Of a stretch of 4,413 bases of DNA, positions 1 through 4,413 are shown one piece after another. The first letter of the stretch is position 1. Each line of letters opens with the position of its first letter. This stretch comes from a virus (lineage: Duplodnaviria; Heunggongvirae; Uroviricota; Caudoviricetes). The notes under the pieces were generated by a model. That model worked only from the letters and a program-made list of their open reading frames with translations, did not search any database and was not told the origin of the DNA. Location: the IMG/VR virus record IMGVR_UViG_2778261454_000003, one strand, 5' to 3'. The position numbers and the translations under genes are program-made.

Positions 1-40
1 CGCTTACCGCTCATGGGCACCTCTCTTTAAGCCATCTTAA

Positions 41-400
41 ATGACTCTGAGGTGTCTGTTAAACCCGTGGCGATTCAGTATGAGCATTATCAGTACTGCT
101 AAAGGTGCTGCAAATGGACAATTCCACGGCGGCATAGATGAGCTACCAGCAGGGTATGATAACAAATCATTCGTACTTAAAGCTGGTGAACGTGTAGTAC
201 AACCTGAAGCTAACAAGAAACTAACAGCATTTCTTGATAAACATGAAGGGGGTAGTAGTTCTGGTGATGTGACCATTAACGCACCTTTGATCATTCAAGG
301 TGATGTAGCTGGTGATGATAAGAAATTCAATGAAATGTTGAAGAAACATCAAAACAGTGTAGCACAGGCTTACAGAAGCTCTATTAAGCGTAATTCATAA
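41..400 (+). CDS. Lambda-type tail tape measure protein, C-terminal domain-like ORF (possible orphaned fragment; start uncertain, ATG 41 or ATG 80)
   Basis: Open frame from ATG 41 to TAA 398-400, followed at once by a hairpin terminator. The translation (Gly-rich stretch, then ELPAGYDNKSFVLKAGERVV ... DVTINAPLIIQGDV ... FNEMLKKHQNSVAQAY) resembles in pattern my recollection of the lambda gpH C-terminus (unverified, no search run). Position just upstream of gpM-like/gpL-like genes matches lambda H-M-L order. Hand-counted GC about 43% on one 60-nt stretch. No clear Shine-Dalgarno before either candidate ATG, and an in-frame TAA at 38-40 closes the frame upstream. Confidence 0.55.
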   Translation: MTLRCLLNPWRFSMSIISTAKGAANGQFHGGIDELPAGYDNKSFVLKAGERVVQPEANKKLTAFLDKHEGGSSSGDVTINAPLIIQGDVAGDDKKFNEMLKKHQNSVAQAYRSSIKRNS

Positions 401-428
401 GAAAGCCCGATTAGGGCTTTCTGTTTCT
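400..428. terminator. Bidirectional intrinsic (rho-independent) terminator hairpin between convergent genes
   Basis: Perfect inverted repeat GAAAGCCC (401-408) / GGGCTTTC (414-421) with 5-nt loop GATTA (409-413), extendable by an A400:T422 pair. On the + strand it is followed by the T-rich tract TGTTTCT (422-428). On the - strand it is followed by TTATGAATTA (complement of 391-400). It sits directly after the + ORF stop at 398-400 and overlaps the stop codon of the - strand ORF (411-413). Confidence 0.6.
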
Positions 429-1037
429 CATATATTCCTTTTTTATTTTATATACAACCTTACGCATTCTATTTGCTTTTATCTTTCTAAGTAATTCACT
501 GAAACTAAAAATTGTGCTAATCGCAATGAGGAAAGTGTACACAAAAAGATTAATTAGCTTTCCGCTTTCAAAGTCCCAGAAAGGTTTGAATATGAAAACC
601 CCAACAAATAGCGGAAGTAAAAAACATCCAATCAATGAACTAACTACAGCAACACTAAGAATGTCTCCTTTTGAACTTTTTTTGATTTTACCATTCTTTG
701 GATTGTAAGCATCTCGTAATCCTTTATAAATTTTCAGTTCTAAGTTGAATTTCTCCAACTGAGAATAAAAATTCTCAATTTGTTTAATAGTTGTAAATTT
801 TAAATTCGTTTTGAAGTTGAATTTTGCTATGTCATGTTCAGCTTGCTCTATTTTAGCTAATTTTTCATTGAAATATTGCTTTTCGCCAATGAATATGCCC
901 CATATTTTATTAGCGACTATAGCCATGCTTCCACTACGATAGACAATATAAAGTGTGACCACGACAATCATCACATTAAGTAGTATTGCGGTTATTGCTG
1001 GAAATGACTTTATAAAAAGCTCAAAAGAATCTTTCAT
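411..1037 (-). CDS. Hypothetical integral membrane protein (208 aa, predicted 3 TM helices, basic C-terminal tail); moron-like antisense gene, candidate superinfection-exclusion/defence protein
   Basis: A 627-nt open frame in very AT-rich DNA (hand-counted about 25-33% GC on three 60-nt stretches), where stop codons are frequent by chance, so coding is likely. Hydrophobic segments at residues 12-33 (FPAITAILLNVMIVVVTLYIVY, nt 939-1004), 126-150 (ILSVAVVSSLIGCFLLPLFVGVFIF, nt 588-662) and 162-179 (LINLFVYTFLIAISTIFSF, nt 501-554). A charged, heptad-like region lies between them (residues 52-110). The C-terminal tail (residues 184-207, nt 417-488) carries about 12 Lys/Arg in 24 residues. Opposite orientation and lower GC than the flanking tail genes. 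No recognisable Shine-Dalgarno before ATG 1035-1037. No family recognised. Confidence 0.7.
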   Translation of the reverse strand: MKDSFELFIKSFPAITAILLNVMIVVVTLYIVYRSGSMAIVANKIWGIFIGEKQYFNEKLAKIEQAEHDIAKFNFKTNLKFTTIKQIENFYSQLEKFNLELKIYKGLRDAYNPKNGKIKKSSKGDILSVAVVSSLIGCFLLPLFVGVFIFKPFWDFESGKLINLFVYTFLIAISTIFSFSELLRKIKANRMRKVVYKIKKEYMRNRKP

Positions 1038-1054
1038 GGATAAATACTCTAAAC

Positions 1055-1068
1055 AAGGAAGTCGAGGA
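1055..1068 (+). promoter_or_regulatory. Ribosome-binding site for the gpM-like gene
   Basis: AAGGAAG (1055-1061) and GAGGA (1064-1068) lie 4-11 nt upstream of ATG 1073. Confidence 0.5.
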
Positions 1069-1069
1069 C

Positions 1070-1098
1070 ATTATGGCATCTTTTTCAAATAATGTGAA
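1070..1098 (-). promoter_or_regulatory. Candidate sigma70-type promoter for the minus-strand membrane-protein gene
   Basis: Read on the - strand: -35 TTCACA (complement of 1093-1098), a 17-nt spacer, then -10 CATAAT (complement of 1070-1075) preceded by TG one base upstream (TGcCATAAT, extended -10-like). The predicted transcript start near 1062 gives a leader of about 25 nt before ATG 1037. Sequence pattern only; the -10 overlaps the start codon of the divergent gpM-like gene. Confidence 0.25.
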
Positions 1099-1630
1099 GG
1101 TTACAAACTTTCAAATTAAAAGTACTGAACCAATTTACTCTAATCAAACATGGTCAGGGCAACGTATCATGAGATCAACGGGTATTCAGTTCTACAATAT
1201 TCAGTTCACACTCAATTTCAATCCTTCAGCACTAACTGAAGTTAATAGCTTTTTAGCTCAGTACGCACAAGGTAAACCATTTACTTTCTCACTTGGTGTA
1301 GCTGGTATATATCATGGTACACAAACTGGCTCAGTTACCAGTACTGGATTAATTCAACCTGGAAATATGATTATCCCAACAAGTAGCAATACATTAGCTG
1401 TTGGTGAATGGATTCAATTCACTAATCATAACAAGCTATATCGAATTGTAGAGCGTGCTGGAACAAGTATTACTATCTTTCCCGCACTACAGAATACAGT
1501 ACAGGCAAGTGAAGTAATCAAATATAACAACCTCATGATAGAGGCGGTATTAGATCCTGATAATGATTACACAATGCCAGTAGGTAACATTATGAACATC
1601 ACACTAAAGGCTACAGAGAACATACAATAA
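1073..1630 (+). CDS. Minor tail protein, lambda gpM-like (185 aa, with a C-terminal extension relative to lambda gpM)
   Basis: ATG 1073 with a Shine-Dalgarno just upstream; stop TAA 1628-1630 overlaps the next start (TAATG). The N-terminal ~80 residues (WSGQRIMRSTGIQFYNIQFTLNFNPSALTEVNSFLAQYAQGKPFTF) resemble in pattern the remembered lambda gpM core (YSQR ... KTYSVTLSVPREEATVLESFLEEHGGWKSFLW). Synteny: lies between the tape-measure-like ORF and gpL/J-like genes. Hand-counted GC about 40%. Confidence 0.8.
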   Translation: MASFSNNVKVTNFQIKSTEPIYSNQTWSGQRIMRSTGIQFYNIQFTLNFNPSALTEVNSFLAQYAQGKPFTFSLGVAGIYHGTQTGSVTSTGLIQPGNMIIPTSSNTLAVGEWIQFTNHNKLYRIVERAGTSITIFPALQNTVQASEVIKYNNLMIEAVLDPDNDYTMPVGNIMNITLKATENIQ

Positions 1631-2253
1631 TGAATGCTAGTACATACACAAATGCTAATCTTCTCAAGTACTGGAAATTAGTTAGAGGAACTACCAAAAC
1701 ACAACTAAGCCTAATGGATATTATGAGTTTAGGCGTTTTCGTAACGTGTTTTGATGTACTACCAAAAGGTACAAATGGTTTTCACTGGACTGATTCACTA
1801 ATTGATATTCCTCTTGATGGTTATCAATATACAAGTTTTCCCGATATTATCAGTGGTTTACTACCTTCATACTCTGAACAAAAGGGTATTACGAATGATG
1901 CTATTAACTTCAAGATAAGTAATGTAAATGCTTCAGTACGTGCTCTTGCTTTGGGCGGGTTCCTTAAAGATGCTCAGATGAATATCAAGTTAGTTATCTT
2001 GAATCCATATGATAGTACTGTAATTGATTCAATGCTTATGTTTACTGGATTCATTGATTACATTCAAGCCGTAGCAGATCCAAATGCTAAAACCAATGAA
2101 ATGACTGTATATGTCAATTCTGTATATAAGAAACTTGATCGTCAACCAGCTCTAATAGCTGCTAATTCAGTATATCAATCTTATTACAAGGGTGATGAAT
2201 ACTTTTCATTACTTGGTCAGGTTAACCAAAATCAAAATTGGAAATACAAATAA
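1630..2253 (+). CDS. Putative minor tail protein, lambda gpL-like by position (207 aa)
   Basis: ATG 1630 overlaps the upstream stop (TAATG), indicating translational coupling; stop TAA 2251-2253. Assignment rests mainly on gene order (after gpM-like, before the small tail protein and J-like gene) and size. Sequence resemblance to lambda gpL is weak and from memory; the C-terminal Cys cluster of lambda gpL is not evident. Confidence 0.7.
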   Translation: MNASTYTNANLLKYWKLVRGTTKTQLSLMDIMSLGVFVTCFDVLPKGTNGFHWTDSLIDIPLDGYQYTSFPDIISGLLPSYSEQKGITNDAINFKISNVNASVRALALGGFLKDAQMNIKLVILNPYDSTVIDSMLMFTGFIDYIQAVADPNAKTNEMTVYVNSVYKKLDRQPALIAANSVYQSYYKGDEYFSLLGQVNQNQNWKYK

Positions 2254-2657
2254 TGAAAAATCTACATAACGAAATTATGAATATCATTCAAACAGCAATT
2301 GATAGCCCTTATCAGTTCGGAACTAATGATTGTAACATTATAGTACTCCGATTAATTGACTTAATTAACGGTACTACAACCCTATCAGATCGCCAATATA
2401 CGAGCGTTAAAGAGGGTATAGCGGGTTTAAACAAGGAAGGATGGAACCACACAGGGGAAATAGTTGAAGCCTATTGTAAGCCCGTACAACACGTTATAGA
2501 TGGTGATATCTGGCTAGATCCTGATAACCCTCTAATCATGGCAGTAGTCGTATCAGGTCGTGTACTTGGTGTTACTGCTAATCATGACGGTTTTGAACTT
2601 CAACCGAAGCCAACAAAAGGAACATATTATAGAGTAAGGAAACATATAGATGGGTAA
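2253..2657 (+). CDS. Small tail-tip protein (134 aa from ATG 2253; 139 aa if ATG 2238), possible papain-fold (NlpC/P60-like) peptidase, gpK-like by position
   Basis: ATG 2253 overlaps the upstream stop TAA 2251-2253 (same TAATG coupling as at 1630); the alternative ATG 2238 would overlap the upstream gene by 16 nt. Stop TAA 2655-2657. Contains a Cys in a G-x-x-D-C context (YQFGTNDCNIIV) and downstream His residues (WNHTGEIVEAY, QHVIDGD, ANHDGFEL), as expected for NlpC/P60 Cys-His catalytic residues. Motif-level evidence only; no JAB/MPN-like domain is apparent. Confidence 0.7.
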   Translation: MKNLHNEIMNIIQTAIDSPYQFGTNDCNIIVLRLIDLINGTTTLSDRQYTSVKEGIAGLNKEGWNHTGEIVEAYCKPVQHVIDGDIWLDPDNPLIMAVVVSGRVLGVTANHDGFELQPKPTKGTYYRVRKHIDG

Positions 2658-4308
2658 GAGTTTAGGCGGCTTTTTTGGAGCCATTATAACAGCGGTCGTA
2701 GTTGCTGCTGCGGTCTACTTTTCAGGAGGAACGGCATTAGCTGCGGTTGGTTGGGGTGCTGCGGCAGGGGCAGTAAGTTTAGTTGCTACATCTATGCTAG
2801 CTCAAGTAGGGGTAACGGGTTATGGGGATGTATCGGATAGTATAAGTAGGTCAGTTTCCCCAACTACCGGATTGCCAGTACTGTTTGGTGGCGATCTTCC
2901 TCATAAGAATGGTACTTCAGGCGGTTCATTTGTTCTAACTGGTAGTATTGTTAGTTGGTACAACGTACCTGATTCAGATTCACAGTACCTATTTTCTGAA
3001 CAAGCAGTAGCGTATGCGGGTACTGAAAAACATATTGAACAAATTTACATTGATAATGAAGCAGTACTATCAGCCCCAATTACGCAAGATGGAATAGTAC
3101 CGAAAACATCTATTTCTGGTAAATATGCCGATGTACTCCAATTGGAAGTACGTTTTGGTGGTGATTATACAAGTACTAAATCCCTAGCAACTCAATACGC
3201 TGGACCGAAATGGACTAATAAATTTCTTGGTAAAGGTGTTGTTAGTATCAGTACTGTTATCAAGAAAACTCAAAAATCACTTGAAAATAACATTCTCGTA
3301 AATGACCAATTCGCACTAACTGTAGAAATGAAAGGTCAACGTATCTTTGATTTTGTAGATGGTACTATTAAAGCTAGTAGTAATCCACCTTCGATTATAT
3401 ACGATTACTTAACCAATACTGTGTATGGTATGAGTATTGATCCTAGTCTTATCAATCAAGATACATTCGCAGAAACTGCGGCATATTGTGATGCTTTTGA
3501 AATGTACGCCAACGGGGCAATTAGTTATCAAAGTACATTTATGGATAACATTGAAAATATTTGTCAGAGTTTTGGCGGTATCATGTATGTACACGCGGGG
3601 CAGATATGCCTAACTACAGACCGTAAAACTGTATCTGTAGCGTCATTTAATGAGCGTAATATGGTTGGTGGTATACAGGTTAGTACTTCAGGTGTATCAG
3701 ATTATTTCAACGCCGTAGATTGTAAATTCAAAAACCCTCAATCAATCTACACAACGGATGTAGTACGTATTCCTTCAGATATTACCATTGATGAAGCAAT
3801 CCAACATGACGGGCAAGTTATAGCATTATCACGTGATTATACTTGGAGTTATGATCAAGAAGTCATAGCTAAAATGGCAAACATAGATGTACTAAAAGCA
3901 AAATATGCCCTACGTACTATCAGCTTTACTACAAGTGAAGGATGGGATTTAAAAGTATGGGATGCTATTGATGTTAGTAATGATGAACTTGCTATTTCAG
4001 GTAAATTTAAAGTACTGAATAAAGATGTTAGTACTGATCAAGAGAATATTGGCTACGTTACTATCACTGCGGTGGAGGCACCAGATCAGATGTATGATGG
4101 CGTTGATCCGGGTGTATGGTCGCCGGGTGGTGTGATTAGCTTCCCTCAGCTATCAGTACTTCCACCATCTAACCTACAGGCTGTTAAGAAAGGTAATACT
4201 ACTGCTGGTTCGGTTATTGATCTAACGTGGGATGCTTCACCAGATCCATACCTACGCGGTTATTATGTGTACTATAAACTTAATAGTTCTTTGATCCTAC
4301 CCACGTAA
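2650..4308 (+). CDS. Tail tip / host-specificity protein, lambda gpJ-like N-terminal region fused to a gpI-like Gly/Ala-rich hydrophobic N-terminal segment; ends prematurely within an FN3-like domain (552 aa)
   Basis: ATG 2650 with AAGGA (2636-2640) 9 nt upstream; overlaps the upstream stop (ATGGGTAA). Residues 1-90 (GGFFGAIITAVVVAAAVYFSGGTALAAVGWGAAAGAVSLVATSMLAQVGV ... GLPVLFGG) resemble the hydrophobic Gly/Ala-rich segment I recall in lambda tail assembly protein I. Residues about 240-330 (IIYDYLTNTVYGMSIDPS ... AAYCDAF ... ICQSFGGIMYVHAGQICLTTDR) resemble the remembered conserved J-family tail-tip domain (lambda J: WCLWDMLTHPRYGMG ... QYCDQ ... TLTFVQDR). Near the C-terminus YVTITAVEAP is followed by PPSNLQAVKKGNTTAGSVIDLTWDASPDPYLRGYYVYYK, an FN3-like beginning. 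Stop TAA 4306-4308. Lambda J is over 1100 aa, so this ORF looks truncated. Confidence 0.85.
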   Translation: MGKSLGGFFGAIITAVVVAAAVYFSGGTALAAVGWGAAAGAVSLVATSMLAQVGVTGYGDVSDSISRSVSPTTGLPVLFGGDLPHKNGTSGGSFVLTGSIVSWYNVPDSDSQYLFSEQAVAYAGTEKHIEQIYIDNEAVLSAPITQDGIVPKTSISGKYADVLQLEVRFGGDYTSTKSLATQYAGPKWTNKFLGKGVVSISTVIKKTQKSLENNILVNDQFALTVEMKGQRIFDFVDGTIKASSNPPSIIYDYLTNTVYGMSIDPSLINQDTFAETAAYCDAFEMYANGAISYQSTFMDNIENICQSFGGIMYVHAGQICLTTDRKTVSVASFNERNMVGGIQVSTSGVSDYFNAVDCKFKNPQSIYTTDVVRIPSDITIDEAIQHDGQVIALSRDYTWSYDQEVIAKMANIDVLKAKYALRTISFTTSEGWDLKVWDAIDVSNDELAISGKFKVLNKDVSTDQENIGYVTITAVEAPDQMYDGVDPGVWSPGGVISFPQLSVLPPSNLQAVKKGNTTAGSVIDLTWDASPDPYLRGYYVYYKLNSSLILPT

Positions 4309-4309
4309 T

Positions 4310-4413
4310 ATGGACACAGGCCTAAGCGAGGTTCTTGTTTTCAAATTGTTCCGGACTGAGGCCGCCACACCAACTGTGCCGCCGCCACCGATTGTAATCA
4401 CATTCGATATAAT
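4310..4413 (+). CDS. Possible start of a downstream ORF, or a frame-shifted continuation of the J-like gene (partial, runs off the window end)
   Basis: ATG at 4310-4312, one nt after the J-like stop. The +1 frame is open from 4295 to the window end (SYPRNMDTGLSEVLVFKLFRTEAATPTVPPPPIVITFDI...), including a Pro-rich linker-like motif. No Shine-Dalgarno. Hand-counted GC about 50% over 4309-4413. A minus-strand frame is also open across 4300-4413, so coding strand and reality are unresolved. Confidence 0.2.
   Translation, partial: MDTGLSEVLVFKLFRTEAATPTVPPPPIVITFDI

What the first reader, a model, noticed from the sequence alone, without database searches (positions are those of the whole stretch)
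4140..4413. J-like tail-tip gene stops inside an FN3-like domain, followed by a composition shift and a +1-frame ORF
The J-like protein ends at 552 aa, just after the first strands of what reads as a fibronectin-III-like domain (PPSNL...LTWDASPDP...GYYVYYK). Lambda-type J proteins continue for several hundred more residues through the FN3 and receptor-binding domains. One nt after the stop, a +1-frame ORF (open from 4295, ATG 4310) runs to the window end and encodes a Pro-rich linker-like stretch. GC rises from about 37-40% to about 50% over the last 105 nt. This could be a mosaic junction where a foreign receptor-binding module was grafted on, a frameshift or pseudogenised J, or the edge of a deleted or defective prophage. 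A simple 1-nt indel seems unlikely because the +1-frame sequence does not look like the rest of an FN3 domain.
Basis: partly seen in the sequence, partly recalled or inferred. Interest (0 to 1): 0.6.

Follow-up and report, generated by a model that had tools for sequence, protein, structure and literature searches.

The report
IS3 insertion splits prophage tail-tip gene
The tail-tip gene stops early because a common E. coli jumping gene (insertion sequence IS3) landed in the middle of it, and the "new ORF" and GC jump after the stop are just the end of that IS3 copy, so this is an ordinary event.

Summary
ORF 2650-4308 (552 aa) ends inside an FN3 domain, a +-strand frame is open from 4295 (ATG 4310) to the window end, and GC rises from 36.6% to 49% over the last 122 nt.

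The cause is ordinary. Window 4292-4413 is 100% identical to the right-end terminus of E. coli IS3 (TGATCCTACCC...). The real coding strand there is the minus strand, which carries the 3' end of the IS3 transposase. The Pro-rich "+1 ORF" is its antisense.

Window 78-4291 aligns without gaps, at 99.6% identity, to an intact 36-kb phage contig (L008). There the J-like gene encodes 1100 aa, with FN3 at 505-590 and a J-type tip-fibre domain at the C-terminus. IS3 sits after codon 547. The last five codons (LILPT) and the stop come from IS3.

A 173-aa E. coli protein (P0029, WP_244586359.1) reads exactly as the IS3 left end + CTT + J codons 548-715. This indicates a simple insertion with a 3-bp target duplication.

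The other window end (1-77) is the terminus of a second IS3-family element, which cuts the tape-measure gene. The window is a whole draft contig that breaks in IS repeats.

"Pseudogenised J / defective prophage" is correct. Interest is low.

The parts
1..77 (-). Left-end terminus of a second IS3-family element (ISEhe3-like). It ends ...GGCGATTCA at position 77. The orfA start codon is on the minus strand at 14-12 (MSGKR...).
   Evidence: The 77-81 nt match transposase or 'ISEhe3 orfA' features in phage and E. coli records at 96-100% identity. A full 1229-bp copy, TGAATCGCC...GGCGATTCA, with orfA/orfB lies in L007 at 5738-6966.
78..400 (+). 3' fragment of the tape-measure gene (about the last 106 of 732 codons), cut by the left IS.
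   Evidence: It hits PHROG tape-measure C-termini. Collinearity with L008 starts exactly at window 78 = L008 7429, inside the 732-aa ORF 5553-7751.
400..422 (.). Hairpin terminator between the convergent tape-measure and DUF6216 genes.
   Evidence: A 9-bp stem followed by a T-run.
411..1037 (-). Opposite-strand cargo gene ('moron') encoding a DUF6216 membrane protein.
   Evidence: Pfam PF19723, 3.4e-20. It is present in intact phage L008 at 7762-8388. A DUF726-type gene takes its place in L007 (Pfam PF05277), and an ORF of matching size, strand and position sits there in L009.
1073..1630 (+). Distal tail protein gene.
   Evidence: phrog_1302, 3.5e-16.
1630..2253 (+). Tail protein gene (phrog_2048).
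2253..2657 (+). DUF6950 tail-module gene.
   Evidence: PF22262, 1.1e-9. The start follows the public gene call.
2650..4291 (+). Native 5' half of the J-like tail-tip / central-fibre gene: codons 1-547 plus 1 nt, out of 1100.
   Evidence: phrog_31 'central tail fiber J', 1.2e-40. It is 99.6% identical and gap-free against L008 up to 4291. Every homologue continues ...YYKLNSS-STWIYAG....
4289..4291 (.). CTT, the inferred 3-bp target-site duplication of the IS3 insertion.
   Evidence: Only the model 'IS3 left end + CTT + L008 sequence from 11643' reproduces P0029 (172/173 residues). Five other IS3 copies all carry 3-bp direct repeats.
4292..4413 (-). Right-end terminus of IS3 (TGATCCTACCCACG...). 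The transposase orfB 3' end is on the minus strand at 4413-4325, with its stop at 4324-4322. Bases 4292-4308 supply the J ORF's last codons, L(ttg)-I-L-P-T-stop.
   Evidence: 122/122 identity to IS3 copies in unrelated contexts, with the flanks diverging exactly at 4291|4292. The annotated IS3 transposase CDS lies under the match.
4310..4413 (+). It is an open frame but not a gene, being antisense to IS3 orfB.

Best explanation
A copy of the E. coli insertion sequence IS3 transposed into the J-like tail-tip gene of a low-GC siphovirus-type prophage, between nt 4291 and 4292. That is after codon 547 of 1100, in the middle of the FN3 domain. It duplicated the 3-bp target CTT.

The upstream half of J now reads into the IS3 right inverted repeat. 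It picks up five IS-encoded residues (LILPT) and stops at a TAA inside that repeat. The rest of J lies on the other side of the 1258-bp element. That rest comprises the remainder of FN3, further repeats and the J-type tip-fibre domain.

The GC rise and the open + frame after the stop are properties of IS3 itself. IS3 is 54% GC, and its transposase is coded on the minus strand here.

A second, different IS3-family element interrupts the tape-measure gene at 77|78. The prophage therefore has at least two essential tail genes broken and is defective.

The 4413-bp window is an entire short-read contig (NODD01000075.1). It ends where the assembler could not resolve these multicopy IS repeats.

**Shown:** the IS3 identity and exact boundary, the collinearity with an intact phage, and the 1100-aa intact length.
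**Inferred:** the target duplication and the persistence of the J 3' half (from protein P0029), and that the left IS is also an insertion rather than a deletion end.
For: - **IS3 identity.** Window 4292-4413 is 100% identical to IS3 ends in phage phi467 and in thousands of E. coli records whose annotation there is 'IS3-like element IS3 family transposase'.
- **Exact boundary.** In a multiple alignment, four unrelated contexts become identical exactly at TGATCC (4292) and differ upstream.
- **Coding strand.** The minus-strand translation of 4322-4411 is the transposase C-terminus ending in a stop.
- **Collinearity.** Window 78-4291 equals L008 7429-11642: 4214 nt, 16 mismatches, 0 gaps. The match stops exactly at both IS termini.
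- **Intact length.** In L008 the J ORF is 1100 aa, identical to P0028. The 90% cluster of the window protein holds many 1100-aa members from E. coli and Enterobacter.
- **Domains lost.** FN3 is at 505-590, and Phage_Tail_Tip / J central straight fibre homology is at about 840-1098.
- **Far side of IS3.** P0029 starts MLGKIT-STWIYAG.... The construct IS3 left end (TTGCTGGGTAAGATCA) + CTT + native sequence matches it at 172/173 residues. Duplications of 0, 1, 2, 4 or 5 bp fail.
- **IS3 habit.** IS3 copies in five other loci are 1258 bp with 3-bp direct repeats.
- **Independent data.** The same junction occurs in independent datasets: NCBI GCA_002518125.1, Logan ERR10686699 and ENA ERZ651927.
Against: - The window holds only 122 nt of IS3, so neither the full element nor the far junction is seen in DNA.
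- P0029 is known only as a protein from an E. coli 657-bp contig. I could not confirm that it comes from the same assembly as the window; the only hint is that the accession numbers are ten apart.
- P0029's contig is itself short, so J is broken again, or hits another repeat, about 500 bp further on.
- No complete E. coli genome in the collection carries this prophage at megablast level, so the full locus could not be inspected.
Confidence: 0.85

Rival explanations
1. IS3 marks a deletion or rearrangement end. IS3 is present at 4292, but the 3' half of J and whatever followed it were lost, for example by adjacent deletion or by recombination between IS3 copies. On this reading the window is the edge of a prophage remnant.
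For: - The far junction is not in the window.
- Both window ends are IS ends, and the fragment between them is only 4.2 kb.
- In the Enterobacter relative L007, the other IS type does sit at a real deletion joint. There a Nu1-like terminase fragment is fused to the IS, followed by a tape-measure fragment.
Against: P0029 reads precisely as the IS3 left end + CTT + J codons 548-715. That is the signature of a simple insertion with a target duplication, and it would not exist if the 3' half had been deleted in every carrier.
Confidence: 0.11
2. The 4291|4292 join is an assembly chimera created by the assembler, not by biology.
For: The contig is short and ends in multicopy repeats.
Against: - The same junction, base for base, is present in contigs from three independent sources built with different k-mer overhangs.
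- The join is exactly at the IS3 terminal TG.
Confidence: 0.02
3. One reading: a mosaic junction with a foreign receptor-binding module, or a frameshift or nonsense mutation.
For: - GC shifts and a new open frame follows the stop.
- Homologues in this family do look recombinogenic around this region. Many partial proteins end at residues 510-545 or 667-715.
Against: - The downstream sequence is IS3 at 100% identity, with the transposase on the opposite strand.
- The alignment to the intact gene has no indel up to 4291.
Confidence: 0.01

Closest known systems
IS3 of Escherichia coli (IS3 family; 1258 bp; OrfA/OrfAB made by programmed -1 frameshift)
   Same: - The 122 nt in the window are identical to annotated copies.
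- It has the terminal TG, and the right inverted repeat pairs with the left one.
- The orfB 3' end is on the minus strand.
- A 3-bp target duplication is inferred here and seen in five comparators.
   Different: Nothing differs in the part that is visible. Only the terminal 10% of the element lies inside the window.
Lambda gpJ-type tail-tip / central tail fibre proteins (phrog_31; Pfam Phage_Tail_Tip PF09327; PDB 9ze4 'Tip attachment protein J central straight fiber domain')
   Same: - It sits last in a tail module of tape measure, distal tail protein, tail protein and DUF6950.
- It matches the J profile.
- The intact homologue has FN3 plus a C-terminal J-type fibre domain.
   Different: - The window copy keeps only residues 1-547 and lacks all receptor-proximal domains.
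- The phage lineage is distant from cultured phages. The best INPHARED match is 29% aa identity.
- The N-terminal ~55 residues are a Gly/Ala-rich hydrophobic segment that does not match any Pfam model.
IS-disrupted cryptic prophages of E. coli / Shigella (general phenomenon; named from my own knowledge)
   Same: Essential tail genes are interrupted by multicopy IS elements, and draft contigs break at the IS copies.
   Different: This specific prophage is absent from the 5,426 complete E. coli genomes searched at megablast level.

Membership tests
IS3 (E. coli IS3 element) | Sequence identity to reference or annotated IS3 copies | tested here: met
   122/122 nt identical to copies annotated 'IS3-like element IS3 family transposase'.
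IS3 (E. coli IS3 element) | Terminal 5'-TG...CA-3' with imperfect terminal inverted repeats | tested here: met
   The window element starts TGATCCTACCC at 4292. In full copies this end pairs with the other end, TGATCTTACCC.
IS3 (E. coli IS3 element) | Transposase reading frame in the correct orientation relative to the end | tested here: met
   Minus strand 4411-4322 gives ...GGLSPEQFENKNLA*. This coincides with the 3' end of the annotated transposase CDS.
IS3 (E. coli IS3 element) | 3-bp target-site duplication at this insertion | tested here: met
   The test is indirect. P0029 matches the IS3 left end + CTT + native J at 172/173 residues, and other duplication lengths fail. Five other copies show 3-bp repeats. 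The far junction DNA was not seen.
IS3 (E. coli IS3 element) | Complete 1258-bp element with orfA/orfB and a -1 frameshift site | not testable with these tools
   The contig ends 122 nt into the element.
IS3 family, ISEhe3-like element (left window end) | TG...CA termini, orfA/orfB with a DDE (rve) domain | tested here: met
   Window 1-77 is 98.7% identical to the end of a 1229-bp element in L007, TGAATCGCC...GGCGATTCA, whose product hits HTH_Tnp_1 and rve. Only 77 nt of it lie in the window.
Lambda J-like tail-tip / central fibre protein | Profile similarity to the J core | tested here: met
   phrog_31, 1.2e-40, residues 223-545 against profile positions 494-911 of 1565.
Lambda J-like tail-tip / central fibre protein | C-terminal tip-fibre / receptor-proximal domain (PF09327) | tested here: not met
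   It is absent from the 552-aa window product and present at 927-1026 in the intact homologue P0028. The window copy is therefore a truncated pseudogene of a family member.
Lambda J-like tail-tip / central fibre protein | Position at the end of the tail-tip module, downstream of the tape measure | tested here: met
   The gene order in the window and in L008 agrees.

The most novel reading that the evidence does not exclude
The IS3 breakpoint lies in a stretch of the J gene (FN3 region, residues ~510-715) where many related E. coli, Salmonella and Enterobacter assemblies also break or diverge. IS3 flanks in other loci resemble this target (ATAGTTCTT|IS3 is identical in a pilV insertion). IS3 may therefore have a sequence-preferred target at a natural module joint of this tail-fibre family. 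IS copies there could then promote exchange or loss of the receptor-binding half, rather than this being a random hit.
Probability: 0.04. Interest if true: 0.3.

Novelty: already known. Interest (0 to 1): 0.07.

Why it matters
It matters mainly as a clean negative. An apparent 'mosaic junction plus novel ORF' turns out to be a textbook IS insertion at the end of a draft contig. The practical points for the scan are these.

- Windows that are whole short contigs often end in IS termini.
- A sudden GC shift, a TG-initiated terminus and an open antisense frame are the fingerprint of such an end.
- The prophage in this E. coli lineage is inactivated in at least two tail genes.
- The underlying phage lineage has no cultured close relative. 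It has 36.5% GC and lives in E. coli and Enterobacter. Its best INPHARED match to this tail-tip protein is 29% aa identity. It also carries a variable cargo slot between the tape-measure and distal-tail genes. That is mildly interesting but is not the finding.

Tried and rejected
- **Pfam on the 552-aa product:** no family at E<=0.1, so FN3 falls below detection once truncated. FN3 was confirmed only on the intact homologue.
- **Megablast of the window against INPHARED phages and complete E. coli genomes:** only the two IS ends match. No record holds the phage part.
- **The look-up of encoding contigs for P0029 and P0028:** The far IS3 junction could therefore not be read as DNA, and I modelled it instead.
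- **IS hotspot check:** I asked whether the many 'partial' homologues that end near residue 536 reflect IS insertions at a hotspot. L038 simply ends at its contig end with no IS3 match, so this is not supported.
- **Extended flank similarity:** some BLAST hits extend upstream of IS3 (4274-4283). The flanks are different AT-rich targets with partial similarity, and the hits were ranked by that similarity, so the sample is biased.
- **PADLOC on the DUF6216, DUF6950 and phrog_2048 proteins:** no defence-system hit.
- **ncbifam:** failed on a frameshifted transposase coordinate range and was not repeated.
- **Frameshift, mosaic graft and prophage-host boundary:** all rejected.

Full report
**1. 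The observation**

The window contains an ORF at 2650-4308 of 552 aa ending ...LTWDASPDPYLRGYYVYYKLNSSLILPT*. The stop TAA is at 4306-4308. An ATG follows at 4310, in a + frame that is open from 4295 to the window end and encodes MDTGLSEVLVFKLFRTEAATPTVPPPPIVITFDI. GC is 0.366 over 78-4291 and 0.492 over 4292-4413 (100-nt profile). The description is therefore accurate. The GC shift alone would not stand out, because one interior 100-nt window of the gene (4050-4149) also reaches 0.55.

**2. What the downstream sequence is**

Megablast against phage records matched only the two window ends. Bases 4292-4413 are 100% identical to a stretch of phage phi467. Bases 1-77/81 match features annotated as transposase or 'ISEhe3 orfA'. 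Against 5,426 complete E. coli genomes the same two ends matched in 4,005 genomes, under the annotation 'IS3-like element IS3 family transposase'. No genome matched the interior.

In two annotated loci (L002, L003) the match covers the 3' end of the IS3 transposase CDS, which lies on the minus strand relative to the window. I aligned the window end with IS3 copies from three unrelated contexts: a pilV shufflon gene, an autotransporter gene and phage phi467. All become identical exactly at TGATCCTACCC, window 4292, and are unrelated upstream. The minus-strand translation of 4322-4411 is YIECDYNRWRRHSWCGGLSPEQFENKNLA*, the transposase C-terminus.

Its Pro run (CCGCCGCCACCG) is the complement of the codons for ...RWRRH.... 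The GC rise is the step from a 36.5%-GC phage to IS3, which is 53.6% GC over the full element.

**3. What the J-like gene should look like**

The 552-aa product hits phrog_31 'central tail fiber J' at 1.2e-40, covering only profile positions 494-911 of 1565. Homologues from E. coli, Shigella, Salmonella and Enterobacter all continue past ...YYVYY(K/R)L(N/H)(S/G)(S/A) with STWTYAG..., complete the FN3 domain and run on for hundreds of residues. The window protein's own 90%-identity cluster contains many 1100-aa members, annotated 'phage tail tip fiber protein'.

One of these, P0028 from E. coli, is encoded at 100% identity on a 36-kb IMG/VR viral contig (L008). Window 78-4291 aligns to L008 7429-11642 over 4214 nt with 16 mismatches and no gaps. 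The alignment stops exactly at the two IS termini.

The L008 gene order is:
- tape measure, 732 aa
- DUF6216 gene, minus strand
- distal tail protein
- tail protein
- DUF6950
- J-like gene, 1100 aa

In P0028, Pfam fn3 covers 505-590 and Phage_Tail_Tip covers 927-1026. PDB sequence matches to J central straight fibre domains cover ~840-1098. The IS3 end begins after codon 547 plus 1 nt, in the middle of FN3. The last five codons of the window ORF (L-I-L-P-T) and its TAA are IS3 sequence.

**4. Insertion or deletion?**

IS3 copies in five comparator loci are 1258 bp and flanked by 3-bp direct repeats: CTT, CGT, TTT, GTT and CAT.

The same protein cluster contains a 173-aa E. coli protein, P0029 (WP_244586359.1, on a 657-bp contig). 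It starts MLGKITSTWIYAGSTG.... I built the predicted far junction as the last 16 nt of IS3 (TTGCTGGGTAAGATCA), plus a duplicated target, plus native L008 sequence from 11643. With the duplication CTT the translation matches P0029 at 172 of 173 residues. With 0, 1, 2, 4 or 5 duplicated bases it fails, matching 10-13 residues.

This is strong but indirect evidence for a simple IS3 insertion with target duplication CTT (window 4289-4291), with the J 3' half persisting beyond the element. I could not retrieve the DNA of that contig. I also could not prove that it belongs to the same assembly as the window.

**5. The rest of the window**

Bases 1-77 are the left terminus of a different IS3-family element, with the orfA start on the minus strand at 14-12. 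A full 1229-bp copy with orfA/orfB and an rve domain is present in an Enterobacter roggenkampii relative (L007 5738-6966). In the window this element cuts the tape-measure gene after about residue 625 of 732.

The window is the entire contig NODD01000075.1 of GCA_002518125.1. The same truncated product occurs on six 2-5 kb contigs, including a Logan contig (ERR10686699) and an ENA metagenome contig (ERZ651927). These carry the identical junction with shorter IS overhangs of 28 and 53 nt. The junction is therefore real and inherited in a lineage. The short contigs are what a short-read assembler produces between two multicopy IS elements.

**6. Mechanism and consequence**

The IS3-family transposition route is a copy-out/paste-in pathway through a circular intermediate. 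The OrfAB transposase that drives it is made by a -1 frameshift. I take this from established knowledge of the family. The 'programmed frameshift' flag does appear in the RefSeq annotations.

By this route IS3 inserted into J and duplicated CTT. The 5' half is now a 552-aa pseudogene product without the receptor-proximal domains. Together with the interrupted tape measure, this leaves the prophage unable to build tails. The loss of function is inferred, not tested.

**7. Comparison and novelty**

This is an already-known kind of event involving an already-known element at 100% identity. 'Pseudogenised J / defective prophage' is right.

The phage lineage has no close cultured relative. The best INPHARED tblastn hit is 28.9% identity over 94% of the protein. 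That is background, not the finding.

**8. Side observations**

These are listed under Noticed in passing. They are a variable cargo slot after the tape-measure gene, independent IS damage in the Enterobacter relative, flank similarity among IS3 insertions, and recurrent contig breaks in the J FN3 region of relatives.

Noticed in passing
window 404-1072 (ORF 411-1037, minus strand; hairpin 400-422): There is a variable cargo ('moron') slot between the tape-measure stop and the distal-tail-protein gene. The window, L008 and L038 carry a DUF6216 membrane protein there. L007 carries a 259-aa DUF726-type protein (Pfam PF05277) and L009 a 262-aa ORF at the same position and strand; the L009 product itself was not scanned against Pfam. 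The DUF6216 protein has no PADLOC defence hit. Function is unknown.
   Followed up: partly
window 1-77; L007 5738-6966: A second IS3-family element (ISEhe3-like, 1229 bp) truncates the tape-measure gene at 77|78. The same IS type independently damages the related prophage in Enterobacter roggenkampii (L007). There it joins a Nu1-like terminase fragment to a tape-measure fragment, which is a deletion. The J gene in L007 is split into pieces of 670, 202 and 176 aa.
   Followed up: partly
window 4283-4291 vs L002 2501-2509; L041: The 9 nt immediately upstream of IS3 (ATAGTTCTT, including the CTT duplication) are identical in an unrelated IS3 insertion in a pilV shufflon gene of E. coli HSP425. 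A pgrR insertion flank matches 11 of 15 nt. This may hint at an IS3 target preference. However, these hits were ranked by BLAST for exactly this similarity, so the sample is biased.
   Followed up: partly
homologues P0005, P0012, P0014, P0033, P0001, P0002; L038 8926: Many database homologues of this J-like protein are 'partial' and end at residues ~510-545 or ~667-715. L038 ends there at a plain contig end with no IS. This suggests the 3' half of the gene is repeated among co-resident prophages, or is a recombination joint, so that short-read assemblies break there.
   Followed up: partly
window 2650-2815 (J-like residues 1-55): The J-like protein starts with a long Gly/Ala-rich hydrophobic segment (MGKSLGGFFGAIITAVVVAAAVYFSGGTALAAVGWGAAAGAVSLVATSMLAQV). 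Some homologues (P0006, P0008, P0009) start only after residue ~125-155. The N-terminal ~130 residues may be a separate module, possibly resembling a tail assembly protein I. No Pfam hit.
   Followed up: no
window 78-4291; L008 whole locus: The prophage is 36.5% GC and is found in E. coli and Enterobacter, which I recall as roughly 50-55% GC hosts (not measured here). The E. roggenkampii relative L007 carries HNH and GIY-YIG homing-endonuclease-like genes; L008 was not scanned for them. Its closest cultured relative shares only 29% aa identity with this tail-tip protein. It is an uncultured temperate siphovirus lineage.
   Followed up: partly
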